Assembly: GCA_964430135.1 (NCBI GenBank)
Contig: CAYSEG010000008.1
Location: 1 to 43,165 of the forward strand
Origin: an uncultured Candidatus Saccharibacteria bacterium
Lineage (GTDB): Bacteria > Patescibacteriota > Minisyncoccia > JAHIHE01 > DAOWLE01
Reading direction: 5' to 3'
DNA: 43,165 nucleotides
In this document: positions 1 to 17,924 of the stretch, in pieces
Numbering within the stretch: position 1 is the first letter of the stretch
How the letters are laid out: the number at the start of each line of letters is the position of its first letter
The notes under the pieces: model-generated
The model's database searches: none
What the model was told of the DNA's origin: nothing
What the model saw: the letters and a program-made list of their open reading frames with translations, nothing else
Position numbers and translations under genes: made by a program

Positions 1-143
1 CCGTTGTCCTTATTTCTTATTCGTTGATTCAGGAAATAAAGAAGATACTTGGAATGTAATCCTAAATTAATTTTCAATTTTTAAATCTTAATTTTTAGTG
101 AAATCTCAAGCACCAAATTCCGAACAATATGATTTATATATAA

Positions 144-464: not shown

Positions 465-545
465 CAGAAATAAATTTTAAAAACTGGAATTTGGAACTTC
501 ATTGGTGCTTGGAAATTGAAAATTTCAATTATTGCCAGGTTAATT

Positions 546-875
546 ATGTTTACTAAAATCAATAAAACATTTCTCTTTTCGATAATCATTTTCTTGCTGT
601 TGTTTGCTCCTTTCACTTTTGCTCAAATTAATGAACCCACCAATAAACCAATCGCAGATATTTTAGCTGATCTTGTTGACTGGCTTTTAAGTCTGGTGGG
701 CATCATTGCCGTTGCAATGATTATCATCGGAGGAGTTCTTTATTTGACTGCCGGAGGAAACGAGAGACAACTGGAAATGGCTAAAAAAACTTTAATTTAT
801 GCTGTCATTGGTCTATTGATTTGCGGAATTTCTTATGTGATTGTTAAAACAGTAGCGGAGATACTAACGAAGTAG
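546..875 (+). CDS. T4SS pilin-like protein (TrbC/VirB2-like, CPR-type), paralog 1
   Basis: Signal-peptide-like N-terminus (MFTKINKTFLFSIIIFLLLFAPFTFA) and two hydrophobic helices. The core GGVLYLTAGGNERQLEMAKKTL...GISYVIV is shared with the two downstream paralogs. An alternative TTG start lies at 516. Confidence 0.65.
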   Translation: MFTKINKTFLFSIIIFLLLFAPFTFAQINEPTNKPIADILADLVDWLLSLVGIIAVAMIIIGGVLYLTAGGNERQLEMAKKTLIYAVIGLLICGISYVIVKTVAEILTK

Positions 876-963
876 AATTTCAATTTCAGAATTAATTAAA
901 GGTGAAGATTCCGAATTTTACGGTTAGTGATCAATAAGGCAATATCAAAAGTCAAACGTTAAA

Positions 964-1323
964 ATGCAAAATGACAAGTTAAAATTCAAAAATGAATTCA
1001 AGAAAAGGCTTTATAATTTTACTCTCTGTTTAATAGAATTTCTTGATTCTTTACCTAAAGATAATGTTTCAAGAAGAATTGGCGACCAACTATTAAGAAG
1101 CGGGACAAGCATTTTAGGTAATTACATTGAAGGTCAATCAGCCAGTAGTAAGAAAGATTTTACAAATTTCTTTAATACTTCTTTAAAATTAGCTAATGAA
1201 AGTAAATTGTGATTTATTTTACTTCGTGACAGCAAAAGAACCAAGCCTGAAAAAGTAGCTTGGTTCTTGAAAGAATTAGATGAAATCGCTAATATTTTTT
1301 GCTTCGAGCATTCTTACTCTTAG
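964..1323 (+). pseudogene. four-helix-bundle protein with an in-frame TGA at a conserved Trp codon
   Basis: ORF 964..1212 ends ...SKKDFTNFFNTSLKLANESKL*. The same frame continues FILLRDSKRTKPEKVAWFLKELDEIANIF to TAG at 1321-1323, which restores the normal length of about 120 aa for this family. The TGA at 1210-1212 aligns with the ANETxxW Trp (TGG to TGA). TGA is a genuine stop elsewhere in the window (frr, and the ATGA overlap upstream of ftsH). Confidence 0.55.
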
Positions 1324-1389
1324 GGGAAGAAATAATTTTGATTTTTGTATTTTAATTTTTAATTTGAATAATGAAGGGAGGTGAGAAAA

Positions 1390-1752
1390 GTGTTCCAAAT
1401 TTTAAAAAACAAACGAAACAAAATAATACTATCCGCACTTGTATTAGTGATAATGGTTTTTCCTCTTTTAGCCTCGGCTGGTTGGAATATGCCGAATAGG
1501 CCAAATGGCTTACCAGATAAAGAATTAGACGAAGTCATTATGACTATCACTGATTGGGTCTTAGGATTTGCCGGAATAATTGCTATTTTAGTAATTGTCT
1601 ATGGCGGACTCTTATATCTTACTTCAGCCGGTAATGAAGACCAAATGGAAAAAGGCAAAAAAACTCTAATGTGGGGCATTTTAGGTTTGGTAATTATCGG
1701 CATTTCCTATGCGATTGTCAAGGTTATTGTTGAGGTTTGGCTGAAGGCATAA
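1390..1752 (+). CDS. T4SS pilin-like protein (TrbC/VirB2-like), paralog 2
   Basis: GTG start at 1390, preceded by AGGGAGGTGA. The 1381 GTG lies inside the SD. Core GGLLYLTSAGNEDQMEKGKKTL...GISYAIV. Confidence 0.65.
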   Translation: MFQILKNKRNKIILSALVLVIMVFPLLASAGWNMPNRPNGLPDKELDEVIMTITDWVLGFAGIIAILVIVYGGLLYLTSAGNEDQMEKGKKTLMWGILGLVIIGISYAIVKVIVEVWLKA

Positions 1753-1866
1753 TTTCCTTGTCTAATTTCGAAAAATTTGCTATAATTGCAATAGTTGTGG
1801 ATAACTTTCTTATTATTTTCTTATTACTTATAACTTATTATTTATTCAGAGAGGGGGTGAAGAAAA

Positions 1867-2226
1867 GTGAAGACATTAAAAAAGATTGGGAAAATAGCTG
1901 CTCCATTGGTTTTAGTAGGTATTTTTGCTTTAACAACCGGTGTGGCGCTTGCGGCAAATGCATGGGGTCCGCCAGATCAGCCAACAAACGTGCCGAATAA
2001 TCTTGCTAGTGCTATATTAAATGTTACTAACTGGATTTTAGGTTTTATCGGATTGATCGCTGTCTTAATTATTATCTGGGGTGGAGTTTTGTATTTAACT
2101 GCTGCTGGAAATGAAGACCAAACCGCAACCGCCAAGAAGACAATTAGCTGGGGTATTATGGGTTTGGTGATTGCCGGACTTGCTTATGCTATTGTCTATG
2201 TAATTTACACTGTCTGGCTTGGGTAG
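1867..2226 (+). CDS. T4SS pilin-like protein (TrbC/VirB2-like), paralog 3
   Basis: GTG start preceded by GAGGGGGTGA. Signal peptide with ALA-AN cleavage site. Core GGVLYLTAAGNEDQTATAKKTI...GLAYAIV. Confidence 0.65.
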   Translation: MKTLKKIGKIAAPLVLVGIFALTTGVALAANAWGPPDQPTNVPNNLASAILNVTNWILGFIGLIAVLIIIWGGVLYLTAAGNEDQTATAKKTISWGIMGLVIAGLAYAIVYVIYTVWLG

Positions 2227-2290: not shown

Positions 2291-2333
2291 AAAAAACAGA
2301 CACGATTCGTTATTGAAAAGTGTCTGTTTTTTC
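2291..2333. terminator. bidirectional rho-independent terminator
   Basis: AAAAAACAGACAC-gattcgttattgaaaa-GTGTCTGTTTTTT: a 9-bp perfect stem flanked by an A-run and a T-run. Confidence 0.7.
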
Positions 2334-2708: not shown

Positions 2709-2806
2709 CCGTTGGTTCGGTCGTCCGCGACTGAACCAGCAAGTGGAATGGTATTGGCTATTTAGAAAATTAAACCTATGGTTCAATCGGAACGATTGAA
2801 CCAACG
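2709..2806. repeat. family-B double-hairpin MITE-like element (copy B1)
   Basis: CCGTTGGTTCGGTCGTCCGCGACTGAACC ... GGTTCAATCGGAACGATTGAACCAACGG. Terminal inverted repeats CCGTTGGTT/AACCAACGG, each next to a 10-bp-stem hairpin. Homologous to copies at 19189-19296 and 30196-30308. Confidence 0.7.
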
Positions 2807-2842: not shown

Positions 2843-4363
2843 TTATTTTAATTTTCTAAATATAATTGCGATATCATCCTGATAAATTTCATCCCAATCT
2901 GGGCTTAATCTTAATACTTGAGCCAGCGCCCTATCTTTTTTAATAAGCATCCATGAGACATTATATTTTTCAAGAAGATCTTGCCAATTACTCTGAAGCA
3001 TGTTTATTTCAGTGTAATCTTTAAGAATATGGAGATCCTTATTTTTCCAATGAGCCATTCTTCCATCAATGAAAGTTTTTACTTTAGGATATTCCCAGAT
3101 TAAATAACCGCCGAAGCCATAGTCATTAAACATATTTCCTTCTTGGGGATTTTCTTTGAGAAATTCCACTGCTTTTCTTGGATATTTTGCTTGCTCCGCT
3201 AAAATCGCGGGAGAATTAATTGCTTTTATTGTTTCTTTTAAAGAAAGGAGATGAGGAATATAGATGATAGAAAGAAGCACAAGTCCGATAAATATCACTT
3301 TTGTCTTTAAAACCTCTGAAAGTATTTTTTCCGGGACGCCTTGGATACTTTCTAATAGAAAAGGGATAGTAATAATAACGAAAAGCGGAACATGACGGGC
3401 GCTTTGAAGAGCCAGCCATAGAAAAGCCATCAAAAGAACAAATTGGGTAGGATCAATTCTTGATTTTTTTAAAGCAAGAATTTCAATGATGATCAAAAGA
3501 TAAATAGCAAAAAATATTCCCTCAGTACTATGAAAATTCAAAGAGAGCCACTCAATAATAATATTTGTTCCATAGGAATCAGTAAAGGTTCTTTTAAGCT
3601 CCCAAAGAAGTTTATAGCCGTAAGGATTAATGAATGCAACCAAGAAAGAAAGGGTAGTAAATATGCATAATTTTTTCCAAGCATTTTTTGTTAAGGTTTG
3701 AGATTTTTTTATCCATTCTGTTTCTCCTTTGTTTATCAGTCCTCTAATTTTTATTCTTTCAGTAGAAATGATGATTCCTAAGGTAATAAGGCCAATGACA
3801 AAAGAGGCATGCATATTTGCCCAGAGTAAAAATAATAAAGGAAGGGCGAAAACTGTTTTTGTTTTTTCGTTTTCTTTTAGTTTTTTCACAATAATTAAAA
3901 CCAAAACTAATCCCAAAAGAGTCAGAACTTGGGGGCGAATGCCAATAAAACTCCAGGAAACAAGAACACCAAGAATTCCGATTATTATTTTACTTTCCAA
4001 AGAATTTTTTTTCCGAGTCGTTTCGCCGATTAAAAAGCCAAAAACAGCTACGATAATTAAAGCAAAGGCAATACTTAATCCCCAATATCCAAAAATACTG
4101 TAGATACCGTAGATGAGAATTTCGGTCAGCCATTCATGATCAATCCAAGCAAAATCTGGCATTGTATAAGAATACCAGTCAAGATGAGGAATAGTTTTTG
4201 TTCGCCAAATTAATTCCCCTGTTTTTAGGTGCCAGCCCAAATCAGGATCGCCGGGCGATTTAAAGCCAAACAAAAAAATTATAATCAGGCCCAAAATAAC
4301 AAAACCGTATTTAGTTATATTGTGATTTTTAAATTCGGATTGAAGAAGTTTTTCAAAATTCAT
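2843..4363 (-). CDS. polytopic membrane protein, putative GT-C-type glycosyltransferase
   Basis: 506 aa with more than 10 predicted TM helices. First loop PGDPDLGWHLKTGELIW. It sits in the same tightly packed minus-strand block as the Arn-like enzymes. Confidence 0.4.
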   Translation of the reverse strand: MNFEKLLQSEFKNHNITKYGFVILGLIIIFLFGFKSPGDPDLGWHLKTGELIWRTKTIPHLDWYSYTMPDFAWIDHEWLTEILIYGIYSIFGYWGLSIAFALIIVAVFGFLIGETTRKKNSLESKIIIGILGVLVSWSFIGIRPQVLTLLGLVLVLIIVKKLKENEKTKTVFALPLLFLLWANMHASFVIGLITLGIIISTERIKIRGLINKGETEWIKKSQTLTKNAWKKLCIFTTLSFLVAFINPYGYKLLWELKRTFTDSYGTNIIIEWLSLNFHSTEGIFFAIYLLIIIEILALKKSRIDPTQFVLLMAFLWLALQSARHVPLFVIITIPFLLESIQGVPEKILSEVLKTKVIFIGLVLLSIIYIPHLLSLKETIKAINSPAILAEQAKYPRKAVEFLKENPQEGNMFNDYGFGGYLIWEYPKVKTFIDGRMAHWKNKDLHILKDYTEINMLQSNWQDLLEKYNVSWMLIKKDRALAQVLRLSPDWDEIYQDDIAIIFRKLK

Positions 4364-4371
4364 TTTATTAT

Positions 4372-6069
4372 TTATAACACCTTATAAATTACTGCTTTTT
4401 CGTTTTTATAAACCGGCTTTAAATATTCCATTTTTTCCGGATGAAAGTTTTCTAGATTGTAGTTAGAGAAAAATTTTGGAGAGTAATCAGGGAAAAGATC
4501 TGAAGAGTAGTCGGTGAAGAGCTCTGGAGAATATAGAAAATAAGCAATTTTGTATTTTTTTAAAAATTTATATTTTTGCTCTTTTTTTTCATCATCTTCA
4601 ATGAAATGTTTTAATTGGTTCATTTTTTTTGAAATATTTATAGTACGAGGAATATAGCCCGCAAAAACTATATTGCCGGACAACCCGGGGATAAGATTAC
4701 TGATTGAATATCCTGAAAGGACTATTTCTGAAGAATGAGTATTGTTTTTTAGCCAATCTACAGCTTCAAGATAAGATTTATCTAAATAAATAGGACAGGC
4801 AAGATAAATTTTTATATTTTGATCCTGATTTTTAGAAAAATAATCATATAGGGCAATATCAGTTAGCACGACATTAATATTGGAGAGAGATGTAAAAGAT
4901 ATTATGATAGAAAAAAAGATAACCTTTACTTTCTGAAAGGAAAAAGAAAATCCTTTTTGCGTCCATTTGTTTTTAAGATAATCTGAAAGAAGGAATAAAC
5001 CGAGAGTAGCTAAAATGACCATTGGGATATGCAAACCTTCGGTAAATTTTCTCTGAAATGGTAAAAATGACTGAGACGAAAGAAAGGAAGATGCAATTAT
5101 CCATGCTAATATAAAAAAAGAATTCCAATTTTTATTTTTAATAATTTTTAATATTCCTATTAGAGCTAAGAAAAAAATTAAGCCAAAGCCAGATATATAA
5201 CCCAGAAAGGATTTATTAAAAGTAATTCCTCCTTTTTCAAACCACCATTTAAGAGACGGACTATTGTTAATAGCATAATAATTATAAAGAATACCTGGCA
5301 AAAGAATTACTGCCATTATGAAGCAATATTTCAAAGTTATTTTTGGTTTCAAGTCCTTAATTAGAAATTTAAGAAATATAAAAAATCCAATAGTCAGCCA
5401 GACTATGAAAATATCATAAGTATGAATTAAGGAAAGGCTTAAAAGCGCTATACCTGATCCAACAGCATACTTTAACTTTGGATTTTTAAAAAATTCGAGA
5501 GTTAAGATGAATATAATGAGTATTAAAATTAGGGAGAGCAAATTAAGCGGTGATTCTAAAAGATTTAAGAAAGTAATTGTTTCTATCTGCCAAAGGTCAA
5601 TAGAGTAGTTTCCGGCTATCCAGCCGAATCCAGAGGAAAAAGTAAGAAGCAGAAAACATACCCCCCGCTTCAAAATGCCTTTTAAAAAATAAGAAATAAA
5701 TATATAGGCAATAAATAAGAATATAAAACCAAAAAATATTCTGAAAAGATGATAAGTAAAGATATTTGAAAAGTTGAAAATTCTGGCAAAATGCCCCATT
5801 GCCAGAAAAAGAGGATGAAAAAGAATTCTTCTTTGCGGTTCTACGCAGTATGGATCCTTGAATAAAAAGTGTCCTTCATTAGCTTGTTGAATCCAGGCGA
5901 TATAAGTGTAAGTATCACAAGTATTTATTTGGTGTTGCCCCATAAATTGAAAATTAGGCGGGGTAATATGGATAGCATAAAGATAAGGAAGTAATGTAAT
6001 ACTCATTATAATTATTGAAAAAACAAGGACAAAATACCATTCTTTTTTGGGAATAAAAGGAATAGACAT
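4372..6069 (-). CDS. polytopic membrane protein, putative GT-C-type glycosyltransferase
   Basis: 565 aa with many TM helices. The ATG overlaps the stop of the upstream gene by 1 nt (TAATG), which suggests translational coupling. Confidence 0.4.
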   Translation of the reverse strand: MSIPFIPKKEWYFVLVFSIIIMSITLLPYLYAIHITPPNFQFMGQHQINTCDTYTYIAWIQQANEGHFLFKDPYCVEPQRRILFHPLFLAMGHFARIFNFSNIFTYHLFRIFFGFIFLFIAYIFISYFLKGILKRGVCFLLLTFSSGFGWIAGNYSIDLWQIETITFLNLLESPLNLLSLILILIIFILTLEFFKNPKLKYAVGSGIALLSLSLIHTYDIFIVWLTIGFFIFLKFLIKDLKPKITLKYCFIMAVILLPGILYNYYAINNSPSLKWWFEKGGITFNKSFLGYISGFGLIFFLALIGILKIIKNKNWNSFFILAWIIASSFLSSQSFLPFQRKFTEGLHIPMVILATLGLFLLSDYLKNKWTQKGFSFSFQKVKVIFFSIIISFTSLSNINVVLTDIALYDYFSKNQDQNIKIYLACPIYLDKSYLEAVDWLKNNTHSSEIVLSGYSISNLIPGLSGNIVFAGYIPRTINISKKMNQLKHFIEDDEKKEQKYKFLKKYKIAYFLYSPELFTDYSSDLFPDYSPKFFSNYNLENFHPEKMEYLKPVYKNEKAVIYKVL

Positions 6070-6434
6070 TATGATTTAGAGACTAAAAATACTCCTAAGC
6101 AAATAATAATAACTCCGATTAAACGAAGAGGAGTAATATGCTCATTGAATAAAAATACAGAAGAAATTAAAACTAAAACAAATGAAAGACTCATAAAAGG
6201 ATAGATATAACTTATTTCTTTTTTAGATGCCGCAGCCATATAAGTAAAGCTTCCTAAGAAAGCTAAAACGAGACTTAAAATCACATATCTGTTAGATAAT
6301 GATTTTATAAAAAACGGGGTAATTTGTGAAAAATCCATCGGAAACTTTCCGACAATATTCATTCCATGCTTTAAAATTAACTGTCCGGCCGCTGTAAATA
6401 GAATTGTAATAAGTATCAGCAAATAGACTATCAT
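6069..6434 (-). CDS. ArnE/ArnF-like small EamA/SMR-type flippase subunit
   Basis: 121 aa with 4 TM helices. TAAGQLILKHGM and YIYPFMSLSFVLVLISSVFLFNEHITPLRLIGVIIICLGVFLVS match E. coli ArnE (AGQLCQKQA ... [43 protein letters not shown]) as I recall it. Confidence 0.6.
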   Translation of the reverse strand: MIVYLLILITILFTAAGQLILKHGMNIVGKFPMDFSQITPFFIKSLSNRYVILSLVLAFLGSFTYMAAASKKEISYIYPFMSLSFVLVLISSVFLFNEHITPLRLIGVIIICLGVFLVSKS

Positions 6435-6437
6435 TTT

Positions 6438-7565
6438 TTATTTTTTTATTATATCAATAACTGAACGAATAATATATCTAACTTCTTTGCGGGTTAATTT
6501 AGGATAAAGAGGAAGGGTAATGGTGCTCGCGCCTATTTTTTCAGCATTAGGATACATCCCTTTTTTATATCCATATTTTTTTCTATAATATTTCATTAAA
6601 TGAATTGGTCTAAAATTTACAGCTATCCCTATTTCTTTTTTTTGAAGTTGGTGTATTATTTTATCTCTTTTCTTTGGGTCCACTTGGATTGTGTAGATAT
6701 ATCTAGCTGGTTTTGTCTTTGGTAAAATTTCTGGAATTTGTATATTTTTAATATTTTTAAAAGCATTATTATAAATTTGACAAATTTTCTCTCTTTTTTT
6801 TAATCGTTCTTCTATCTTGTCTAATTGATTTAATAACATCGCTGCTTGAATGTTGGTCATATTATATTTCCAACCCAGAAATTCCATATCGTAATGTTGA
6901 TATTTTTTACTATATCGTTCAGCAGCGCTTTTACTCATGCCATGAAGTCTTGCTTTTTTTAGCCATTCAGCAATATTTTTGTCGTTAGTAACAACTGCTC
7001 CTCCTTCTCCCGAGGTAATATTTTTAATAGCATAAAAACTAAAGGAGGCTGTATTTCCTATTTGTCCGGCTCGATATCCATCTCTTTGGGCTTCTAAAGA
7101 ATGTGCTGCATCTTCTATTATAATAAGATTATATTTATTAGCAATCTTTTGGATTTTTTTCATATCGCAAAGCTGTCCGTAAAGATGAACAGGGATAATA
7201 GCTTTAGTTTTTTTAGTAATTGCTTTTTCAATTAAATCTGCATTTATATTTCCAGTGTTTTTTTCTACATCAACAAAGACTGGTTTGGCGCCAGTAAATT
7301 CAATTGCGTTAGCAGTAGAGATAAATGACATTGGGCTGGTAATAACTTCATTATCTTTGCCGATGCCGTAAGCTAAAAGAGAAAGATGAAGAGCGGCAGT
7401 GCAACTAGTAAGGCCAACAGCATATTTTACCCCTAAGTACTTAGCTAATTTATTCTCAAATTCTCCTACTGTTTCTCCAGTAGTCAAAAATAGAGAATTA
7501 AGAACTTTATTAACGTTTTCTATGTCTTTTTTTTCTAAATTGTGTTTAAAAAAATCTACTTTCAT
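6438..7565 (-). CDS. DegT/DnrJ/EryC1/StrS-family PLP aminotransferase (ArnB-like sugar 4-aminotransferase)
   Basis: SFYAIKNITSGEGG (PLP-binding Lys), AIIPVHLYGQ, IIEDAAHS. Overlaps the upstream gene by 4 nt. Confidence 0.9.
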   Translation of the reverse strand: MKVDFFKHNLEKKDIENVNKVLNSLFLTTGETVGEFENKLAKYLGVKYAVGLTSCTAALHLSLLAYGIGKDNEVITSPMSFISTANAIEFTGAKPVFVDVEKNTGNINADLIEKAITKKTKAIIPVHLYGQLCDMKKIQKIANKYNLIIIEDAAHSLEAQRDGYRAGQIGNTASFSFYAIKNITSGEGGAVVTNDKNIAEWLKKARLHGMSKSAAERYSKKYQHYDMEFLGWKYNMTNIQAAMLLNQLDKIEERLKKREKICQIYNNAFKNIKNIQIPEILPKTKPARYIYTIQVDPKKRDKIIHQLQKKEIGIAVNFRPIHLMKYYRKKYGYKKGMYPNAEKIGASTITLPLYPKLTRKEVRYIIRSVIDIIKK

Positions 7566-9208
7566 TTTTTATTTACTTTAAAGAAATAAAATTTTTGGTT
7601 ACATTTTTCATATTTAGTATAATCAAAAGTCGCTTCATCGGTAGCTAATAGAGAGTATTTATCAGGATTGCTAAGAAGATAGTTTTGTATATCAAGGTAC
7701 TCTAATATCTTATTCTTATATGGTATTTCACAATAAGAAAACTTTTTAAGATTAGTTTCCTCTAAAAATATCATATCACAATTTTTACTAAAAATAAAAA
7801 AGTCTATTTTGATAATTTTTTCTAATTTTTTTAATTCTTCTATATTTTTAGGCGGATGCCAGATGATCTTAATTGGGTAGTTTTGCCAAGCGTATAAAAA
7901 AGTATAAGGGGATACAATAACTTGTGGATTATACGCTTCTATATTTTTGTCTATCATTTGCGAAATAAGCGACTGTTCTTTATATTCCCTTTCTATTTTA
8001 TTTTTCATTTGGATAACGGAAATAATGTCTACAGATAAAAAAATAATAAATAGGCCGCTTATCAGAACCATCTTTTTTATTTCTTTATTGTTTAATTTAG
8101 ATAGATAATTTTCAAGAAATATTGAAAAATATATCAGAAGAAAAGGAATAAACCATAATAATATTCTTGTTTCTATTCTGTTCAATACACTGTAAAAAAG
8201 AAATAAAAGCAAAATATTTATTATAAATATAGGAAAAAATAGCCAGAAAAATCTTTTTTGTTTTTCATCACAATATTTATTATATGAAAGCAGAGTGAAA
8301 AAAGCTATTAACCAATAAGAAAACTTTAGAAGATCTTCGCTGTTTATTATTCTAAGGGTAGTCGCTTTATCAAAATTAAAAAGAAAATTTTCTTTGAGGC
8401 CCCATAATTTTTTATAGAAAGTATCCCATGAATTAATAATATTAAAATTATTGGGATAAATTTGTCTATCTGCTGAAAAGATTGGAAGGTAAAGAGTAAA
8501 AAATAAAGCTAAAAAAACTAAACTAAATATTATAATATTTCTCAGTCTATTTTCTTTGTTATAAATACAGAGTGAACCGATAACAGGCCATAATAAAAGT
8601 CCAAACGTTTCCCTAAAAAACATTCCAATAATTAAAATTACGGCCAAAATTATTGGTTTTGTATAATTATTTTTAAGTTTTATTAGAAGATAAAAGAATA
8701 AAAGACAGAGAAAAACAATGGAAATTTCAGTCATTACCATATTGGTATACAGCCAAAATACTGGAAATAAAATAAATAAAACAATTGATAGATTTCTGGC
8801 TTTTATATTTTTGTCAAGTAATTCTTTTGAGAGAAAATAAAATATAGCAATAGAGGTTAAATATAATAAAAAATTAGGCAGTAAAGCTATATAGTCATTG
8901 ACTCCGAATATTTTAAAGAAAACTGCCACAAGAGTAGAAAAACCAGGCATATGAAATGGTCTATCAAAGCCGCCATTTTTTATTATACTTTCGGTTATAT
9001 AAAGATTTGACGAAATTTCTCCTTTAAAAGCTATATTTCTGGCAGTTAGAGCGTATTCTATTTCATCAGAGTGTGAAATTTGTTGAAATAAAAATAAATT
9101 AGAGACAATTAAAACAATTGTCCCTAATAATAGACAGGTTTTAAGATTGATTGATTTATTTTTATATTTTTTGAAATAATTAAAAAAAGAAGTCGCTGAA
9201 CTATTCAT
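7562..9208 (-). CDS. GT39/GT83-family (ArnT/PMT-like) polyprenyl-phosphate-sugar-dependent glycosyltransferase
   Basis: 548 aa, polytopic. First periplasmic loop SDEIEYALTARNIAFKG: a DE..YA..A motif typical of ArnT/PMT enzymes. Confidence 0.65.
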   Translation of the reverse strand: MNSSATSFFNYFKKYKNKSINLKTCLLLGTIVLIVSNLFLFQQISHSDEIEYALTARNIAFKGEISSNLYITESIIKNGGFDRPFHMPGFSTLVAVFFKIFGVNDYIALLPNFLLYLTSIAIFYFLSKELLDKNIKARNLSIVLFILFPVFWLYTNMVMTEISIVFLCLLFFYLLIKLKNNYTKPIILAVILIIGMFFRETFGLLLWPVIGSLCIYNKENRLRNIIIFSLVFLALFFTLYLPIFSADRQIYPNNFNIINSWDTFYKKLWGLKENFLFNFDKATTLRIINSEDLLKFSYWLIAFFTLLSYNKYCDEKQKRFFWLFFPIFIINILLLFLFYSVLNRIETRILLWFIPFLLIYFSIFLENYLSKLNNKEIKKMVLISGLFIIFLSVDIISVIQMKNKIEREYKEQSLISQMIDKNIEAYNPQVIVSPYTFLYAWQNYPIKIIWHPPKNIEELKKLEKIIKIDFFIFSKNCDMIFLEETNLKKFSYCEIPYKNKILEYLDIQNYLLSNPDKYSLLATDEATFDYTKYEKCNQKFYFFKVNKK

Positions 9209-9224
9209 TATTTCATTTTATTTT

Positions 9225-10262
9225 TCAAAATATTCTATTTTTATATTTAACCTCTCGTAAAATTTTATCCGTTTCAATTAAATATTTGTAATAATCTACC
9301 GTTTTCGTTTTGATATCATCTGTTATTTTTCTTTTTTCTAATGCATCTTTTATTTCTTTAATTCCATCCTCAATATCCTTTTGTGGTCTAAAGCCTAATA
9401 CTTTTTGGATTTTAGAAAAATTAACATTATAACTTCTTTTATCTGGATCACTTGGAACATTCTCAATTATTGCGTTTGGAATATTTTTTTTAATTAAATT
9501 AGCCACTTCATAAACTTGATAATTTTGTTGGTTAGATCCAATATTAAATATTTCTCCATTAATCTTTTTTTTGTCAGCTTCCAGAATCAATATAAAAGCT
9601 CTAATTAAATCTTGGAGATGGATAAGCGGTCGCCATTGTTTTCCTCCCCCAGTGATAAATATTTTTTTATTTTTAAAGGCATGAAGAGTCATAATATTTA
9701 TAATTAAATCAAAACGCATTCTTTTGGATATTCCGTAAACAGTCGCATTTCTTTGACAGGTAAGACAGAAGTTACCATCAGCTAAACTTAGTAATTTTTT
9801 TTCTGTTTTAAGCTTTAATTTAGCATACAGCGAAACGGGAGATGTCTTAGATGATTCATCTAATTGTAAATTTTCACCTTGGCCATAGACACTACAAGAG
9901 GAGGAAAAGATATATCTTTCTACTCCCATTTCTTTAGCTATTTTTGCCGTCCTTGTTGATCCTTGAAAATTTATAGAATAAGTTATTTTAGGATTGAGAT
10001 CACAGGACGGATCATTTGAGATAGAAGCCAAATCAATAACCCCATAGACATTTTTTAGGATTTCTTTTGGAAAATATCTAATATCTTCTTTTATAATTTC
10101 TATGTTAGGATTGCCTAAGTATTCGTCAAGGGCCTCTATTCCAAAGAAAAATCGATCAAGAGCTTTTACTTTATAACCTTTTTTTAAAAGCTGGCCTACT
10201 AATTCTGAGCCAATGTATCCTCCAGCGCCGGTAACAAGAATTGTTTTTTTATTTATATTCAT
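9225..10262 (-). CDS. extended-SDR NAD-dependent epimerase/dehydratase (UDP-glucuronate decarboxylase / ArnA C-domain-like)
   Basis: TGAGGYIGSEL Rossmann motif, SSSCSVYG, YAKLK (YxxxK), TGGGKQWRPLIHLQD (cf. ArnA DGGKQKRCFTDIRD), GEIFNIGS. Confidence 0.7.
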   Translation of the reverse strand: MNINKKTILVTGAGGYIGSELVGQLLKKGYKVKALDRFFFGIEALDEYLGNPNIEIIKEDIRYFPKEILKNVYGVIDLASISNDPSCDLNPKITYSINFQGSTRTAKIAKEMGVERYIFSSSCSVYGQGENLQLDESSKTSPVSLYAKLKLKTEKKLLSLADGNFCLTCQRNATVYGISKRMRFDLIINIMTLHAFKNKKIFITGGGKQWRPLIHLQDLIRAFILILEADKKKINGEIFNIGSNQQNYQVYEVANLIKKNIPNAIIENVPSDPDKRSYNVNFSKIQKVLGFRPQKDIEDGIKEIKDALEKRKITDDIKTKTVDYYKYLIETDKILREVKYKNRIF

Positions 10263-10325
10263 ACTTTGTAAATAACGTATAAATTTTAACGAGAATTTTA
10301 ATCATTTTTTATTTTGATAAAAATT

Positions 10326-11054
10326 TCAATTAGGAGTGAACCATTTATGATAAACTAATTTGGCATCGTAGATTCTAAAACCAATTTTTTGGTAAAGTCT
10401 TTGGGCAGATATATTTTCTCCTTCTGTAGTAACTTCTATTTCATCTATATTTTTTGAGTTAAACCATTTTATACTTTCGTTTATTAATAATTTTCCATAT
10501 CCTTTTCCTTGATATTCTGGAAGTACTCCAATTAGATCAATTATTCCAATTTTATTTTTAATTTTACAGCTAATAAATCCGTAAATTTCATTCTTTATTT
10601 TTAAAACAATGATTTTATCAGCGTATCCTTTTAAAGAATTTTTTATCCATTCCCTATATATTTTTCTTGAGATATTTTTCTTTATTTTCTTGTCTTTATA
10701 AAAACGGCTTGTTTTCCCCACATAATTATTTATCTGAATTAGTTTTTTTATATCAGAAATTTTAGCATCTTCTAACTTTATATTTCTGGGAATGGAATTC
10801 AATTTATTATTTCTTTTTTTAAGATTTAAGTTATAGCCAACTTTAATATTTATTAAATCAAATTTATTCTCTTGAGCAATATTAATGGTATTGTAGTTGA
10901 TATTTACAAAACAAAAAAGACAAGAAAGATTTATTTTTTTACATTCGTCTAAAATTTTTCCAATATTTTTTTTATTCAAAGAATTAATATTTAATTTTCC
11001 AATATTCTTTTTAAATATTTTACTGTCCCATTCTAGATATTGAATATAGTTCAT
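10326..11054 (-). CDS. GNAT-family N-acetyltransferase (WecD-like aminosugar N-acetyltransferase candidate)
   Basis: C-terminal GNAT core IGVLPEYQGKGYGKLLI ... AQRLYQKIGF. Placed between the SDR and the GT2 gene. Confidence 0.7.
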   Translation of the reverse strand: MNYIQYLEWDSKIFKKNIGKLNINSLNKKNIGKILDECKKINLSCLFCFVNINYNTINIAQENKFDLINIKVGYNLNLKKRNNKLNSIPRNIKLEDAKISDIKKLIQINNYVGKTSRFYKDKKIKKNISRKIYREWIKNSLKGYADKIIVLKIKNEIYGFISCKIKNKIGIIDLIGVLPEYQGKGYGKLLINESIKWFNSKNIDEIEVTTEGENISAQRLYQKIGFRIYDAKLVYHKWFTPN

Positions 11055-11058
11055 AGAT

Positions 11059-11988
11059 TTATTTTATAAACTCATTAATAGAATAAAGCGGTCTTTTTTT
11101 TGTCTCAATATAATTTCTTCCTATATATTCTCCTAAAATACCAATCATTATTAGTTGAATTCCTCCTAAGAAAAATATTGAAACAATCAAAGAAGACCAT
11201 CCAGAGATAGCGGTGCTATAAATTATTTTTTTGAGTATAAAATAAGTTCCTAATATGAAAGAAATCAATGAGATAGATATTCCTATTAAAGTAGTCATCC
11301 TTAAAGGTAAAATAGAAAAGGAGAAAACAGCATCAAATGTTAATTTTAACATTTTGAATAGAGAGTATTTTGTCTTACCCCTGAATCTTTTATTATGATT
11401 TATTTCTATTCCTGTCTGTTTAAATCCTACATAACCAAATAATCCAATTATATATCGATTAGTTTCTCTGCATTTGTTTAATTCTAAAACTACTTTTCTT
11501 TTCATTATACGAAAAATAGTATTGTTAATTTCTATTTTTTCTTGAATGATTTTTTTTATTAAAAAAACAAAAATCTTTGAGGTTATCCTTTTAAACAATT
11601 TATCTTGTCTATTTTTTTTAATTCCATATACTATATCATATCCTTTGTTTAGTTTATTTAATAATTTAGGAATTTCTTCGGGTTGATCCTGCAAATCTCC
11701 ATCCATTAAGACTACCAATTTTCCAGTGCAATGATCTAATCCAGCAGTGATGGCAATGTGGTGTCCAAAATTACGAGAGAATTGAATGATTTTAACATTA
11801 TTGTCTATTTTATGTAATTCGTTTAATATTTCAAAAGATTTATCAGTGCTGCCGTCATCAACAAATATCATTTCATAAGTCTTCCTCAAATTCAGCAAAA
11901 CTTTAAATAGCCTTCTATAAAGTTCTTTTAAGTTTTCTTCTTCATTATAAATGGGAATTATAATTGAAATTTCAGTTGTTTTGTTCAT
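11059..11988 (-). CDS. GT2 polyprenyl-phosphate sugar transferase (ArnC/GtrB/DPM1-like)
   Basis: SIIIPIYNEEENL, VDDGSTDKS, DGDLQDQP, plus two C-terminal TM helices: the classic ArnC/GtrB architecture. Confidence 0.85.
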   Translation of the reverse strand: MNKTTEISIIIPIYNEEENLKELYRRLFKVLLNLRKTYEMIFVDDGSTDKSFEILNELHKIDNNVKIIQFSRNFGHHIAITAGLDHCTGKLVVLMDGDLQDQPEEIPKLLNKLNKGYDIVYGIKKNRQDKLFKRITSKIFVFLIKKIIQEKIEINNTIFRIMKRKVVLELNKCRETNRYIIGLFGYVGFKQTGIEINHNKRFRGKTKYSLFKMLKLTFDAVFSFSILPLRMTTLIGISISLISFILGTYFILKKIIYSTAISGWSSLIVSIFFLGGIQLIMIGILGEYIGRNYIETKKRPLYSINEFIK

Positions 11989-11999
11989 GAATATAAAAT

Positions 12000-13676
12000 T
12001 TAAAGATGTTTTATCTTCCAGATTTCAGTATCTTCATTTTGATAGGTCTTTTTAAATTTACTATCATTATTTAAGATATTTCTAAGGTTTTGATACTTTG
12101 ATTTACCACCGATAAAAATATACTCGGCTTTGAATTTTTCTTTGATAACTTGAGAAATAGGTTTATCTTTTTGGGGAACTTTGCATTCTGGCAAACTGCA
12201 GATAATTCCTTCTTCGCTGATATGCCGCCAGAGCCAGTATTTCTGAGGGTCGGCTACATACATAAAAGTCGGATCCATTCCTATTATATAATAATTATGA
12301 TGATTATAAAAGAATAATTGCGGAAAATTTCCCCAGTTGGCATTAAAGACAATTGATCCTTGAGGAGTATTTTTATTCAGCCATTCAGCAGCATCTTTGT
12401 ATTGATCATATTTTATTCCCTGATCAATCGCCCATGAAGCATAAGAAATGTTGGCTAATACTAAACCAAGCAGAGTTATCGCGGTGAAAAATTTAATAAT
12501 TTTTTTATTAGTTTGCTTCTTTAGTGTTATTGCGGGCGACTGAAGGGAACGTGGTAATGACAGCCGGGTTAACGAATCTACCCCAAAAGCTCCAAAAAGT
12601 ACAGTAAACGGCACCCAGTATTCAACAAAACGGTTGGCTTTGAGGGTTAGAACGAAAAAGAAAAGAGAAATGATAAAAAGCGAATAGAGAATTACTTTTT
12701 TGTCGTTTCGATCCGCTTGCTCTTTTGTCATTGCGAACGAGCCCGAATAGGGCGAGCGTGGCAATCCCGTATTTTCGCGGGATTGCTTTGTCGTTCCGCT
12801 TCTCGTAATGACAGAGGAGATAATGCCGATCGCAAAACATATCAAAACAAGCAAATTCGCGCGGGCAAAGTTGGCAAGGTCAGCGATTGGAAACCATTCC
12901 ATTCCTACGGGGATAGAGTGGAATATTCCTGCCTTGAAAATTTGTATATAAAGATAATAAAAATTTTTTGGAAAATAAGGATTAATGATTAATCCTCCTA
13001 ATAGTCCAATTCCGGAATAAATTAATAATTTTAGACCTGGCTTCCTGTTAATAAATAAATTTAAGCAGAAGAAAGAAAAAATGAAAAAGAGTAATATTAA
13101 AGAAGCTCCATATGTCCAGGAATACAAGAAAGATAAAACAAAAAGAAGAAAATATTTCTTTTTGATTATAAGATAGAAGCCTAAAAATAAGAATATTATT
13201 GAAATACTTTGGGTTTTAAGTAAATTTAGTCTAAAAATAAAAATTTGAGAGGCGCAGAATAATAAAATTGTCCAGAAAAAAGTAGATTTTATTTTATTTT
13301 GTTTTAATATCCAATAAAAAACTAAAAAGACGAGGCTGTTAAAAATAATTGTGGCTAATTTTGCTCCAAAGATTAAATCTCCATAAGTAAAAGGAACTAA
13401 AAGAATATGGAATAAAAAGTGAAAATCAGAAAAATTGTCTTTCCAGATAGTAAATTGCAGCCAGGGAAAATTATTAATAAACCCCTGTGTTCTTAAAAGA
13501 TAAGCGTTTTTTATGTGATAATAACCATCAGCCCCGGCCAAATTAGGAGTAGAAAATTGTATAAGAGAAAATATGATAAAAAAAAGTATGAAAACAGATA
13601 AATAAGGAATATATTTTTTGATTAGTAAAAAATTCATATTAAGTAAAAAATACTTTGATTTACTTAATTGTATCAT
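12000..13676 (-). CDS. polytopic membrane protein (putative glycosyltransferase) carrying an in-frame repeat-element insertion
   Basis: 558 aa with many TM helices. The loop RSGTTKQSRENTGLPRSPYSGSFAMTKEQADRNDKK is encoded by a GC-rich palindromic element (see repeat 12697-12814). Confidence 0.4.
   Translation of the reverse strand: MIQLSKSKYFLLNMNFLLIKKYIPYLSVFILFFIIFSLIQFSTPNLAGADGYYHIKNAYLLRTQGFINNFPWLQFTIWKDNFSDFHFLFHILLVPFTYGDLIFGAKLATIIFNSLVFLVFYWILKQNKIKSTFFWTILLFCASQIFIFRLNLLKTQSISIIFLFLGFYLIIKKKYFLLFVLSFLYSWTYGASLILLFFIFSFFCLNLFINRKPGLKLLIYSGIGLLGGLIINPYFPKNFYYLYIQIFKAGIFHSIPVGMEWFPIADLANFARANLLVLICFAIGIISSVITRSGTTKQSRENTGLPRSPYSGSFAMTKEQADRNDKKVILYSLFIISLFFFVLTLKANRFVEYWVPFTVLFGAFGVDSLTRLSLPRSLQSPAITLKKQTNKKIIKFFTAITLLGLVLANISYASWAIDQGIKYDQYKDAAEWLNKNTPQGSIVFNANWGNFPQLFFYNHHNYYIIGMDPTFMYVADPQKYWLWRHISEEGIICSLPECKVPQKDKPISQVIKEKFKAEYIFIGGKSKYQNLRNILNNDSKFKKTYQNEDTEIWKIKHL
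12697..12814. repeat. family-A palindromic element (copy A1) inserted in frame inside a CDS
   Basis: TGTCATTGCGAACGAG ... CTCGTAATGACA terminal inverted repeats. Internal hairpins GCCCgaataGGGC and GCAATCCCGtattttcgCGGGATTGC. GC content is far above the flanking sequence. The insertion keeps the reading frame and falls between two TM helices. Confidence 0.65.
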
Positions 13677-13761
13677 AGAAATTTATTTTGAGGAATTTTT
13701 GGATAAAAAAAAGAGGCAGGTGATTTGTTGTCTTATGACAATAAATTCCTTACCTATTTTA

Positions 13762-14640: not shown

Positions 14641-14642
14641 TT

Positions 14643-16317: not shown

Positions 16318-16451
16318 CAAGTGTCCAGCACATAATGGACTAAGTGAAAAATTAAAAATTCAAAATGAAAAATGACAAACTAAAAATTAAAAATAAAGAG
16401 GAAAAGAATAAACCAAAACAGCAAAAATTAACTGTTGAAATTCTTGATAAG

Positions 16452-16873: not shown

Positions 16874-16927
16874 TCAGTTAGAAATTTGTCAATTTTTAAT
16901 ATAAAAGTTCAATAGTTCAATTACCTC

Positions 16928-17866: not shown

Positions 17867-17924
17867 ATGGTTTTAATTGATTATATTATGAGTTAACTTT
17901 AGCAAATCTCCTACTTAAAGTTAA

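What the first reader, a model, noticed from the sequence alone, without database searches (positions are those of the whole stretch)
516..2226. Tandem triplication of T4SS-pilin-like genes with hypervariable mature N-termini
Three paralogs share signal peptides and a near-identical C-terminal core (GG-LYLT-AGNE-Q-E-AKKT ... GISYxIV). The segment just after the predicted cleavage site is unrelated between copies: QINEPTNKPIADILADL, AGWNMPNRPNGLPDKELDEVIMTI and ANAWGPPDQPTNVPNNLASAILNV. This is the pattern expected for surface-exposed pilin tips under diversifying selection. The genes sit directly beside an 11-kb glycan-transfer block, so they may be its substrates.
Basis: partly seen in the sequence, partly recalled or inferred. 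Interest (0 to 1): 0.55.

Follow-up and report, generated by a model that had tools for sequence, protein, structure and literature searches.

The report
Patescibacterial VirB2-like pilin gene array
Three neighbouring genes encode small secreted two-helix membrane proteins of the VirB2-like "T4SS pilin" family, which is already known to form multi-gene arrays in the ultra-small Patescibacteria. This is an ordinary member of that kind, and its predicted outward-facing ends are its most variable parts.

Summary
The three ORFs are real (516/546-875, 1381/1390-1752, 1867-2226, + strand). All match Pfam PF18895 T4SS_pilin above its cut-off. The window is a low-GC Patescibacteria chromosome fragment.

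Such arrays are already published: 441 arrays of 2-11 VirB2-like pilin genes in 383 assemblies, and an essential array in Southlakia. The finding is therefore a new member of a known kind.

- The cores are 56-65% identical, not near-identical.
- The signal peptides are not shared.
- The N-terminal segments are alignable on a W..P..P..TNW scaffold conserved in at least 90% of 80 homologues.

They are nevertheless the least conserved mature parts. Among seven near-identical strains, amino-acid changes cluster there and in the C-tail (pN/pS 0.55 versus 0.09 in the core, p=0.01). The ratio is not above 1.

Sister contigs show the array continues upstream with "head" pilins, which carry Cys-rich domains on TTTTAPGP linkers. 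Head presence and pilin copy number differ between strains.

No virB4 lies in the window. In the closest clade the order [quoted passage not shown] is conserved. The glycan link is thus more than chance adjacency, but glycosylation of the pilins is untested.

The parts
1..59 (+). 3' end of an upstream pilin-domain gene. It is 347 aa in sister contigs: signal peptide, Cys-rich head, (TTTTAPGP)n linker, pilin core. The window is cut inside it.
   Evidence: Window 1-59 aligns within the full-length 99.2-99.4% matches to L001 and L003, at the end of the 347-aa PF18895 gene. It also matches the end of a second head-pilin gene at 91.5%.
546..875 (+). Pilin copy 1. The ORF opens at TTG 516, but the likely start is ATG 546. 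Predicted mature N-terminus: QINEPTNKPIADIL...
   Evidence: PF18895 54 bits and PF04956 30.7 bits, both above cut-off. Sister-contig gene calls start at MFTKINK. In L093 the same core carries a Cys-rich head plus a T8 linker.
964..1212 (+). Four-helix-bundle protein gene (TIGR02436 / PF05635) interrupting the array. It is truncated to 82 aa by TGG->TGA at 1210-1212.
   Evidence: The gene is intact at 119-123 aa in L001, L003 and L005.
1390..1752 (+). Pilin copy 2. The ORF opens at GTG 1381, but the likely start is GTG 1390, preceded by GGAGG. Predicted mature N-terminus: GWNMPNRPNGLPDKELDEVIMTITDW...
   Evidence: PF18895 52.5 bits, PF04956 36.8 bits, NF045849 41.2 bits against a cut-off of 40. 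AF2 model with pLDDT 82.6: leader helix, coil 30-45, then helical hairpin 46-77 / 83-118. Start codon read.
1867..2226 (+). Pilin copy 3. GTG start preceded by GGGGGTGA. Predicted mature N-terminus: (A)NAWGPPDQPTNVPNNLASAILNVTNW...
   Evidence: PF18895 48.5 bits. It is 65% core identity to copy 2 and groups with copy 2 beside the 'last-gene' clade of related arrays.
2296..2332 (.). Terminator-like hairpin after the array. Stem CAGACAC / GTGTCTG, 16-nt loop, A-run before and T-run after.
   Evidence: Read directly from the sequence. The consensus scan (loop up to 8 nt) did not report it.
2843..13676 (-). Convergent neighbour: a block for a lipid-linked amino-sugar and its transfer. Its genes are:
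- four large polytopic membrane proteins (506, 565, 548 [PMT_2] and 558 aa)
- an ArnE/F-like small EamA protein
- a PseC/ArnB-like aminotransferase
- an SDR epimerase/dehydratase
- a WecD-like N-acyltransferase
- a PgfS/ArnC-like GT2
A functional link to the pilins is inferred only.
   Evidence: Pfam and NCBIfam. The same position between the pilin array and the XerC-like recombinase is occupied by other GT2/GT4/PMT_2 genes in related genomes.

Best explanation
This is part of a Patescibacteria VirB2-like (PF18895) pilin array.

Proposed mechanism:
- Each gene makes a Sec-exported precursor, and signal peptidase I removes the leader.
- The mature ~90-residue protein sits in the membrane as a helical hairpin. 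A Pro-rich N-terminal segment and a short C-tail face outside, and the conserved Lys-rich loop (T-A-G-N-E-D-Q...KKT) faces the cytoplasm.
- By analogy with solved VirB2/TraA pili, the subunits are extracted and polymerised by a VirB4-type T4SS encoded elsewhere. The loop then lines the lumen and both termini lie on the outer surface.

The paralogs are old and non-redundant (37-50% identical, each with its own start and leader). They are not a recent triplication.

The outward N-terminus acts as a modular display site. The three window genes carry short variable peptides there. Genes just upstream, and some strain variants, carry Cys-rich heads there instead, some on Thr-rich linkers. Surface patches at the N-segment and C-tail change fastest between strains, probably tuning what the filament touches (host-cell surface, phage).

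What is shown: family membership, hairpin prediction, array structure, where the variation lies, head modularity, synteny.
What is inferred: cleavage sites, topology, pilus formation, a T4SS partner, the reason for the variation.
For: - Family: all three are above the PF18895 cut-off, and two are above the TrbC cut-off. Sources name homologues 'pilin [Patescibacteria group bacterium]'. 55,460 50%-identity clusters match the profile.
- Fold: AF2 gives a leader helix, a coil, then a two-helix hairpin.
[quoted passage not shown] The array is essential in Southlakia (PMC10633639; PMC12857230).
- Generality: 65 of 79 related loci carry at least 2 pilin ORFs, with a mode of 4-5. Position-specific clades across species show old paralogs.
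- Variation map between paralogs: identity is core 56-65%, N-segment 16-28%.
- Variation map across the family: entropy is core 0.88, N-segment 1.64, C-tail 1.74 and leader 2.45 bits.
- Variation map between strains: N:S is 12:6 (N-segment) and 5:4 (tail) against 5:17 (core). In copy 2 alone it is 10:0 against 0:6.
- Termini outward in the T-pilus: bioRxiv 10.1101/2022.09.25.509369.
- Heads in sister contigs: 347-aa and 343-aa head pilins upstream. Their last 372 nt are 98.9% identical although the heads differ.
- Heads in strain variants: an extra 185-aa pilin in L004/L005 has a core 96.8% identical to copy 2. The copy-1 core carries a head in L093.
- Heads across the family: 54 of 290 pilin ORFs in 79 loci have long pre-core regions, and 36 of those have at least 4 Cys.
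Against: - No VirB4, VirB6, VirD4 or other T4SS gene lies among the ORFs of at least 100 aa scanned in the 41 kb downstream. The last such ORF, 41950-42996, was not scanned. Upstream is unknown because every contig ends there.
- In the closest clade no VirB4-like gene lies within 10 kb either.
- No pilus of this family has been seen in any Patescibacterium.
- Sequence and fold searches against solved structures gave no specific match to conjugative pilins. Helical hairpins match everything.
- pN/pS in the variable parts is below 1. The strain sample is small: 7 contigs and 57 changes in all.
- The NJ tree has no support values.
Confidence: 0.6

Rival explanations
1. Variation-cassette system. 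The copies exchange segments by recombination or gene conversion to generate new exposed N-termini under diversifying selection, as proposed for VirB2 paralogs of Bartonella and Anaplasma.
For: - Pairs of genes share nearly identical cores but carry different N-terminal parts. Copy 2 and the 185-aa extra gene are 96.8% identical over 247 nt. The two head pilins are 98.9% identical over 372 nt.
- Copy number differs between strains.
- Multi-allelic codons and several two-base codon changes occur in the N-segment and C-tail.
- All assemblies break just upstream of the array.
Against: - The three window genes are only 61-70% identical in DNA, even in the core, so they have not exchanged recently.
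- Each has its own ribosome-binding site, start and leader, so none is a silent cassette.
- Related species keep position-specific orthologues.
- pN/pS is below 1.
Confidence: 0.12
2. In this clade the proteins are not T4SS pilus subunits. They belong instead to a cell-surface glycan or glycoprotein apparatus. They might act as membrane anchors that display glycosylated heads, or as partners of the DUF4012 / Wzz-like / GT4 polysaccharide locus. The neighbouring block would then glycosylate them or build the same surface layer.
For: - 16 species-level loci share the order GT4 - (Wzz-like) - GT4 - GT4 - DUF4012 - 4-5 pilins. Downstream lies a convergent block: GT4/GT2 genes in many of these loci, PMT_2 found in the two sampled, L010 and L018.
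- A XerC-like recombinase follows in seven loci. PNPase after it was confirmed only in L024.
- The window has the same downstream order.
- The window's GT2 is most like PgfS/ArnC (1e-72 / 2.5e-69). It sits with an ArnE/F-like flippase and PMT_2-type membrane transferases.
- In S. mutans the Pgf pathway (GT-A PgfS, an epimerase, GT-C PgfM1/2) O-glycosylates Ser/Thr-rich regions of adhesins encoded in the same cluster (PMC12041528).
- The head pilins just upstream carry (TTTTAPGP)4 linkers.
- Homologues of the 506-aa and 558-aa proteins lie directly after pilin arrays in two distant lineages, L051 and L061.
Against: - The synteny is confined to one clade, in which DUF4012 proteins are 46-87% identical, so it may be inherited order rather than coupling.
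- The downstream block is absent in L011, L023 and L024, and differs even between strains (L004).
- The block is convergent, not co-transcribed.
- The three window pilins have no Ser/Thr-rich tract.
- Only 2 of 54 long-headed pilins elsewhere are Ser/Thr-rich.
- The same family sits next to VirB4/TraG in 13 other loci and in 1135 of the 1,948 pilin- and VirB4-containing assemblies (PMC12102498).
- The Wzz label is weak: 24.0 bits against a cut-off of 25.5.
Confidence: 0.15
3. The N-terminal variability has no adaptive meaning. It is a weakly constrained linker between the leader and the first helix. It drifts faster than the tightly packed hairpin, as in any small membrane protein family.
For: - pN/pS is 0.55 in the N-segment and 0.45 in the signal peptide, both below 1.
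- Between paralogs the N-segment is no more divergent than the signal peptide.
- The Pfam domain itself covers only the C-terminal ~70 residues.
Against: - The segment keeps a scaffold conserved in at least 90% of 80 homologues (W, P, P, T-N-W).
- Strain-level changes fall on the same few columns that are most variable family-wide. Up to four residues occur at one codon in sequences that are otherwise 93-100% identical.
- Copy 2 has 10 nonsynonymous and 0 synonymous changes in the N-segment plus tail, against 0 and 6 in its core.
- The same site repeatedly acquires whole domains.
Confidence: 0.3

Closest known systems
VirB2-like pilin arrays of Patescibacteria (Quinonero-Coronel et al. 2025, PMC12102498; essential array of Southlakia epibionticum ML1, Wang et al. 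2023, PMC10633639)
   Same: - Same Pfam family (PF18895/PF04956) and same phylum.
- Several divergent paralogs on one strand, sometimes interrupted by a non-pilin gene.
- Paralog identity of 37-50% lies within the published range (mean 25%, maximum 54%).
   Different: - The Southlakia array lies inside the T4SS cluster. Here no T4SS gene lies within 41 kb downstream. In the nearest clade the neighbours are DUF4012/GT4 and glycan genes.
- The papers do not describe where the variation lies, the N-terminal head domains, or the glycan neighbourhood.
Conjugative pilins VirB2 (T-pilus), TraA (F-pilus), TrbC (RP4)
   Same: - Small precursor with a long leader.
- Two hydrophobic helices joined by a short charged loop.
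- Copies 1 and 2 pass the TrbC/VirB2 HMM.
- In solved pili both termini face outward, which matches where these proteins vary.
   Different: - These organisms are monoderm, with no outer membrane.
- There is no evidence of cyclisation or N-acetylation.
- No solved relative is detectable by sequence or fold search.
- There are many paralogs instead of one major pilin.
- N-terminal domain fusions and poly-pilin proteins occur in this family.
VirB2 paralog arrays of Bartonella and Anaplasma phagocytophilum
   Same: Tandem divergent virB2 copies, with variation interpreted as altering the exposed surface (as cited in PMC12102498).
   Different: - Those belong to effector-translocating T4SSs of intracellular pathogens facing antibody pressure.
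- Here the likely partner is another bacterium.
- Related species keep position-specific orthologues, which points to division of labour rather than interchangeable variants.
Mbov_0395 family pilin-like conjugal transfer protein of Mycoplasma ICEs (NCBIfam NF045849)
   Same: A VirB2-like two-helix protein in a wall-less or monoderm setting. Copy 2 scores 41.2 bits against a cut-off of 40.
   Different: Copies 1 and 3 are below the cut-off (21.3 and 37.3 bits). That family is a single gene inside an ICE, not a chromosomal array.
Pgf protein O-glycosylation pathway of Streptococcus mutans (PgfS, PgfE, PgfM1/M2 with adhesins Cnm, CnaB, CbpA)
   Same: - The neighbouring block has a PgfS-like GT2, an SDR epimerase/dehydratase and large polytopic (GT-C-like) membrane proteins.
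- Candidate substrates with Thr-rich linkers are encoded next to it. This mirrors the pgf cluster, which encodes its own substrates.
   Different: - The GT2 is below the PgfS equivalog cut-off (245 against 500 bits) and scores equally well as ArnC.
- The membrane proteins hit PMT_2 or nothing, not YfhO.
- The block also has amino-sugar genes (aminotransferase, N-acyltransferase, ArnE/F-like flippase) that the pgf cluster lacks.
- No glycosylation has been shown.

Membership tests
PF18895 T4SS_pilin (Patescibacteria VirB2-like pilins) | Profile HMM score above the curated cut-off | tested here: met
   54.0, 52.5 and 48.5 bits against a cut-off of 26.6.
PF18895 T4SS_pilin (Patescibacteria VirB2-like pilins) | Cleavable leader followed by a hairpin of two hydrophobic helices with a short charged loop | tested here: met
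   AF2 on an 80-sequence alignment gives pLDDT 82.6, with helices 8-29 (leader), 46-77 and 83-118. A-x-A-like sites and the KKT loop are read from the sequence. Cleavage itself was not tested.
PF18895 T4SS_pilin (Patescibacteria VirB2-like pilins) | Occurs as same-strand arrays of divergent paralogs | tested here: met
   Three genes lie in the window and at least five in sister contigs. 65 of 79 related loci have at least 2 such genes.
PF18895 T4SS_pilin (Patescibacteria VirB2-like pilins) | Genetic linkage to virB4 and other T4SS genes | tested here: not met
   None of the window ORFs of at least 100 aa that were scanned is a T4SS gene. The last such ORF, 41950-42996, was not scanned. Upstream cannot be read because the contigs end. 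Linkage is not universal in the family: 1135 of the 1,948 pilin- and VirB4-containing assemblies.
PF18895 T4SS_pilin (Patescibacteria VirB2-like pilins) | Polymerises into an extracellular filament | not testable with these tools
   Not shown for any member so far (PMC12857230).
PF04956 TrbC/VirB2 conjugative pilins | Profile HMM score above the cut-off | tested here: inconclusive
   Copy 1 scores 30.7 and copy 2 scores 36.8 bits against a cut-off of 27.9. Copy 3 has no hit.
PF04956 TrbC/VirB2 conjugative pilins | Structural similarity to solved pilins (TraA, VirB2, TrbC) | tested here: inconclusive
Type IV pilins (T4P, PilA-like) | Class III leader with G|F-x-x-x-E cleaved by PilD, and a single N-terminal hydrophobic helix | tested here: not met
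   There is no G-F/M-x-x-x-E motif. The proteins have two hydrophobic helices and an A-x-A-type site.
Diversity-generating retroelement target (raised by the Avd-like four-helix-bundle gene) | Template/variable repeat pair and a reverse transcriptase nearby | tested here: not met
   The pilin region has no repeat partner other than the three cores. No RT domain occurs in the window ORFs scanned.
Pgf/Arn-type lipid-linked extracytoplasmic glycosylation (neighbouring block) | Polyprenyl-phosphate sugar synthase (GT2), a flippase and a GT-C transferase | tested here: inconclusive
   - GT2: PgfS 1.2e-72 and ArnC 2.5e-69, both below the equivalog cut-offs.
- ArnF-like protein: 1e-11, below the cut-off.
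- PMT_2: 38 bits against a cut-off of 26.1, met.
- The 506-aa and 565-aa proteins have no family.
- The 558-aa protein has only a weak STT3-like hit, 2.3e-5.
Pgf/Arn-type lipid-linked extracytoplasmic glycosylation (neighbouring block) | Ser/Thr-rich extracytoplasmic acceptor region in the proposed substrates | tested here: not met
   No such region exists in the three window pilins or in any real window ORF. It is present only in the head pilins upstream in sister contigs, as (TTTTAPGP)4.

The most novel reading that the evidence does not exclude
In this Paceibacteria-like clade, VirB2-type pilin arrays would be the protein component of a conserved surface-glycan locus (GT4 / DUF4012 upstream, a variable lipid-linked-sugar / GT-C block downstream). 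The pilin hairpin would serve as a membrane or filament anchor. Its outward N-terminus would display interchangeable Cys-rich heads on Thr-rich stalks. A Pgf/Arn-like pathway encoded next door would O-glycosylate those stalks. These would be the first glycosylated VirB2-family pilins. It would also be a modular 'display pilus' whose heads and glycans both vary between strains.
Probability: 0.2. Interest if true: 0.65.

Novelty: new member of a known kind. Interest (0 to 1): 0.35.

Why it matters
Patescibacteria live attached to other microbes. Their VirB2-like pilins are among the few surface components known to be essential (in Southlakia), yet nobody knows what the filament does or why there are so many paralogs.

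This locus adds no new kind of system. It does give three testable leads:
- Variation maps to the two ends that face outward in solved VirB2 pili.
- The N-terminus repeatedly carries whole domains that differ between strains.
- In one clade the arrays sit in a conserved position between polysaccharide and glycosyl-transfer genes rather than beside virB4.

If the pilins or their heads are glycosylated, that would link two of the most variable surface features of these cells.

Tried and rejected
1. DGR hypothesis, prompted by the Avd-like four-helix-bundle gene. No template/variable repeat and no reverse transcriptase were found. Rejected.
2. Type IV (T4P) pilin. The leader and topology are wrong. 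Rejected.
4. More strain variants. The single metagenome scan returned only three contigs of 1.1-1.4 kb.
5. Upstream context. Every contig carrying the array ends at or just before the head pilins. Searching with the partial head pilin found a 343-aa gene in another locus (DUF4258/DUF2283 ... ybeY) and a 3.5-kb contig holding only head pilins. The prediction that DUF4012/GT4 lies upstream here could therefore not be checked.
6. Identity of the 506-, 565- and 558-aa membrane proteins. There was no Pfam hit for any of the three, and the two tested pairs (506 v 565, 558 v PMT_2) showed no mutual similarity. The 506-aa protein, the only one searched against PDB, had no hit, and it had no NCBIfam hit. 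The 558-aa protein gave only a weak STT3-like NCBIfam hit. 'GT-C-like' remains an inference from size, polytopic character and D-x-D-like N-terminal loop motifs.
7. Promoter and terminator consensus scans were not above the shuffled expectation.
8. The species itself was not found among GTDB representatives. The best pilin match is 52%.
Full report
WHAT IS THERE.
The + strand carries three ORFs of 119, 123 and 119 aa at 516-875, 1381-1752 and 1867-2226. All three match Pfam PF18895 (T4SS_pilin) at 48-54 bits against a cut-off of 26.6. Copies 1 and 2 also pass PF04956 (TrbC/VirB2). Copy 2 just passes NCBIfam NF045849, the Mycoplasma ICE pilin-like family. Their cores form a 3-copy 180-nt DNA repeat at 61-70% identity.

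Reading the DNA suggests different starts. Copy 1 most likely starts at ATG 546. Copy 2 most likely starts at GTG 1390, with GGAGG 8 nt upstream. Copy 3 has the same GG(A/G)GGTGA-spacer-GTG arrangement, so the duplication included the translation-start region. A hairpin followed by a T-run (2296-2332) follows copy 3.

An 82-aa four-helix-bundle gene (964-1212) separates copies 1 and 2. It is truncated by TGG->TGA relative to the 119-aa form in sister contigs.

WHERE IT COMES FROM.
The window has about 32% GC. It carries housekeeping genes (PNPase, FtsH, RRF, ProRS, MreBCD, PBP2, GreA), the CPR-typical DUF5654 and three tRNAs. Homologues of the pilins are named 'pilin [Patescibacteria group bacterium]', Pacebacteria or Moranbacteria by their sources. 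All 79 related loci from species-representative genomes are Patescibacteria MAGs or obvious mis-binnings. No T4SS gene (VirB4, VirB6, VirD4) is among the window ORFs of at least 100 aa that were scanned. The last such ORF (41950-42996) was not scanned.

THIS KIND OF THING IS ALREADY DESCRIBED.
Quinonero-Coronel et al. 2025 (PMC12102498) searched 3,035 Patescibacteria genomes with PF18895 and PF04956. They reported:
- 441 VirB2 arrays of 2-11 pilin genes in 383 assemblies;
- mean identity 25% (maximum 54%);
- particular abundance in Microgenomatia and Saccharimonadia;
- the pilin gene near virB4 in 1135 of the 1,948 assemblies that carry both a pilin and VirB4.

Wang et al. 2023 (PMC10633639) showed that the pilin series inside the Southlakia T4SS cluster is essential. 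[quoted passage not shown] My own survey agrees: 65 of 79 related loci carry at least 2 pilin ORFs within 10 kb, most often 4-5. A profile of the three window proteins matches 55,460 50%-identity clusters.

CHECKING THE 'HYPERVARIABLE N-TERMINUS'.
Between the three paralogs, identity is 56-65% in the core, 16-28% in the mature N-segment, 9-22% in the leader and 0-50% in the C-tail. The core is conserved but not near-identical, and the N-segment is no more divergent than the leader.

The N-segments are not unrelated. In an 80-sequence alignment the segment keeps W32, P38, P42, T54, N55 and W56 in at least 90% of sequences. The consensus is W-G-x4-P-x-G-V-P-T-D-I-x-x-A-I-M-N-x-T-N-W. High entropy is confined to columns 34-37, 39 and 47-48. 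Mean entropy is 2.45 bits for the leader, 1.74 for the C-tail, 1.64 for the N-segment and 0.88 for the core.

STRAIN-LEVEL TEST.
Look-ups by exact protein and one metagenome scan gave contigs 88-99.8% identical to the window. I counted minimal changes per codon over the orthologues of all three copies.

| Region | Nonsynonymous : synonymous | pN/pS |
|---|---|---|
| N-segment | 12 : 6 | 0.55 |
| C-tail | 5 : 4 | 0.38 |
| Leader | 7 : 5 | 0.45 |
| Core | 5 : 17 | 0.09 |

- The N-segment versus core contrast gives Fisher p=0.0095.
- For copy 2 alone, the N-segment plus tail has 10:0 against 0:6 in the core.
- Single codons carry R/K/G/V (copy 2), D/N/T and S/G/N (copy 3) in otherwise near-identical genes.
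- These codons fall in the columns that are most variable family-wide.

This fits faster, possibly adaptive change at defined surface patches. With pN/pS below 1 and only seven contigs, it does not prove positive selection.

STRUCTURE AND TOPOLOGY.
AF2 (pLDDT 82.6) predicts a leader helix, a coil (residues 30-45) and a hairpin of two long helices joined by the T-S-A-G-N-E-D loop. The Lys-rich loop and the acidic, Pro-rich N-segment fit an N-out / loop-in / C-out topology by the positive-inside rule (inference).

THE ARRAY IS LARGER AND MODULAR.
- Upstream head pilin: in sister contigs a 347-aa PF18895 protein lies immediately upstream. Window bases 1-59 are its end.
- Its architecture is leader, Cys-rich domains, a (TTTTAPGP)4 linker, then the pilin core.
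- Second head pilin: another such gene lies before the 347-aa one. It has a different head, but its last 372 nt are 98.9% identical to those of the 347-aa gene.
- Extra pilin in L004/L005: this 185-aa pilin sits between copies 2 and 3. Its core is 96.8% identical in DNA to copy 2.
- It also carries a ~60-aa Cys-rich insert after the leader.
- Copy-1 head in L093: there the copy-1 core (ISEPTNKPIADIL...) carries a Cys-rich head and a T8 linker.
- Family-wide, 54 of 290 single-domain pilin ORFs in the 79 loci have more than 70 residues before the core. Of these, 36 have at least 4 Cys, and only 2 are Ser/Thr-rich.
- The family also includes proteins with 2-8 pilin domains in one chain and fusions to large Ig-like or haem-binding domains.

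The mature N-terminus is thus a general attachment point for displayed domains. I did not find this described in the papers read.

AGE OF THE PARALOGS.
In a neighbour-joining tree of 112 cores, genes from related arrays group by position in the array (first, second, third with local duplicates, last) rather than by genome. The paralogs therefore predate those species. Window copies 2 and 3 and the 185-aa extra gene sit beside the 'last gene' clade. Copy 1 and the 347-aa gene lie elsewhere. The tree has no support values. This argues for division of labour among subunits rather than a recent triplication.

THE GLYCAN NEIGHBOUR.
The convergent block 2843-13676 encodes the following:
- a PseC/ArnB-like aminotransferase;
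- an SDR epimerase/dehydratase;
- a WecD-like N-acyltransferase;
- a GT2 that scores best as PgfS (1.2e-72) and ArnC (2.5e-69);
- an ArnF/ArnE-like small EamA protein;
- a PMT_2 protein;
- three further large polytopic proteins without a family. One of them has a weak STT3-like hit.

This looks like a pathway that makes a polyprenyl-phosphate-linked N-acyl amino-sugar, flips it, and transfers it outside the membrane.

The position is conserved. Sixteen species-level loci of the closest clade show GT4 - (weak Wzz-like) - GT4 - GT4 - DUF4012 - 4-5 pilins. Downstream lies a convergent block. Many of these loci carry GT4/GT2 genes there, and the two I sampled (L010, L018) also carry PMT_2 or methyltransferases. 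A XerC-like recombinase follows in seven loci. PNPase after it was confirmed by Pfam only in L024. The window has the same pilins - glycan block - recombinase (16928-17866) - PNPase (19340-21622) order.

Several facts weaken a functional link:
- The clade is narrow; its DUF4012 proteins are 46-87% identical.
- The downstream block is missing in three loci and differs even in strain L004.
- The window pilins have no Ser/Thr-rich tract.

A real precedent exists. In S. mutans a GT-A (PgfS), an epimerase and GT-C enzymes O-glycosylate Ser/Thr-rich regions of adhesins encoded in the same cluster (PMC12041528). The Thr-rich head pilins are therefore plausible substrates, but nothing here tests it.

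Other clades show other neighbours. NTP-transferase plus SBP_bac_1 lies directly upstream in about 18 loci. VirB4/TraG lies within 10 kb in 13 loci, mostly Saccharibacteria.

VERDICT.
The pilin assignment is correct. The array is an ordinary member of a published class. The diversifying-selection idea has modest support. The glycan-substrate idea is untested, with circumstantial support for neighbouring genes outside the window.

Noticed in passing
window 964-1212: The four-helix-bundle (TIGR02436 / 23S rRNA IVP, Avd-like) gene inside the array carries a TGG->TGA nonsense change at 1210-1212. The product is 82 aa here and in L002/L088, against 119-123 aa in L001/L003/L005. L004/L005 have a second such gene on the minus strand between copy 3 and the 506-aa gene. 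In the window a different 473-nt sequence (2336-2808) occupies that position.
   Followed up: partly
window 16746-16888 and 17903-18045, flanking 16928-17866 (-): A XerC-like tyrosine recombinase gene is bracketed by 143-nt inverted repeats that are 87% complementary. A recombinase of the same family sits at the same place (after the glycan block) in seven related genomes. It may therefore be a conserved chromosomal gene rather than a mobile element. The repeats remain unexplained.
   Followed up: partly
window 2843-15758 versus L004 1744-10641: The content of the glycan block differs between closely related strains. L004 keeps the 506-aa protein and a 596-aa protein. It then has an epimerase, GT2, GT4, a methyltransferase and an Asn-synthase on the other strand. 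This is a strain-variable glycan island next to the pilins.
   Followed up: partly
window 945-1004, 16346-16405, 28865-28938, 37691-37750, 42183-42242 (complementary T-rich forms at 2380-2425, 32835-32878, 41793-41847): Intergenic regions repeat an A-rich motif with a ~7-nt period, (TCAAAAT/G)n. It often lies just upstream of start codons.
   Followed up: no
window 2751-2804, 19208-19296, 30254-30305: A GC-rich hairpin element (GGTTCAGTCGTGGACGACTGAACC and variants) recurs in intergenic regions, in REP-like fashion.
   Followed up: no
window 25354-25430: ARAGORN calls a tRNA-Ile with anticodon UAU, an unusual way for bacteria to read AUA.
   Followed up: no
P0008, P0011, P0013; L039-L046 about 7.5-15 kb: Many family members are 'poly-pilins', with 2-8 pilin domains in one polypeptide. 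Gracilibacteria/Peregrinibacteria loci have two 3-domain proteins followed by a ~1,600-aa and a ~700-aa protein, each with one pilin domain.
   Followed up: no
L037, L043, L049-L053, L061, L063-L069, L074, L077, L078, L083 (just upstream of the arrays): In about 18 loci a ~480-aa SBP_bac_1 solute-binding protein gene ends within a few bases of the first pilin gene. A sugar-nucleotidyltransferase gene often precedes it. No transporter permease was noted beside it.
   Followed up: partly
L091 1637-2668; L092 1278-2309: A 343-aa head pilin, 97% identical to the partial gene at the start of L001, lies in a different setting. A DUF4258/DUF2283 pair is upstream, and ybeY, dagK and ftsA are downstream. 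Either a second locus exists or assemblies switch at the shared 372-nt pilin core.
   Followed up: partly
alignment A2 columns for copy-2 residues 52-54; window copy 3 codons for N-V-T (about 2020-2028): An N-x-T motif just before the conserved Trp is kept in 71/80 (N) and 77/80 (T) homologues and in window copy 3. Copy 2 has T-I-T here and D-I-T in other strains. It may be structural, or it may be an N-glycosylation sequon. The 558-aa neighbour has a weak STT3-like hit.
   Followed up: no
L051 10869-12377; L061 12933-14705: Homologues of the window's 506-aa protein (29% identity, E 4e-31) and 558-aa protein (25% identity, E 3e-36) lie directly after pilin arrays, on the same strand. They occur in a Berkelbacteria MAG and another Patescibacteria MAG.
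   Followed up: partly
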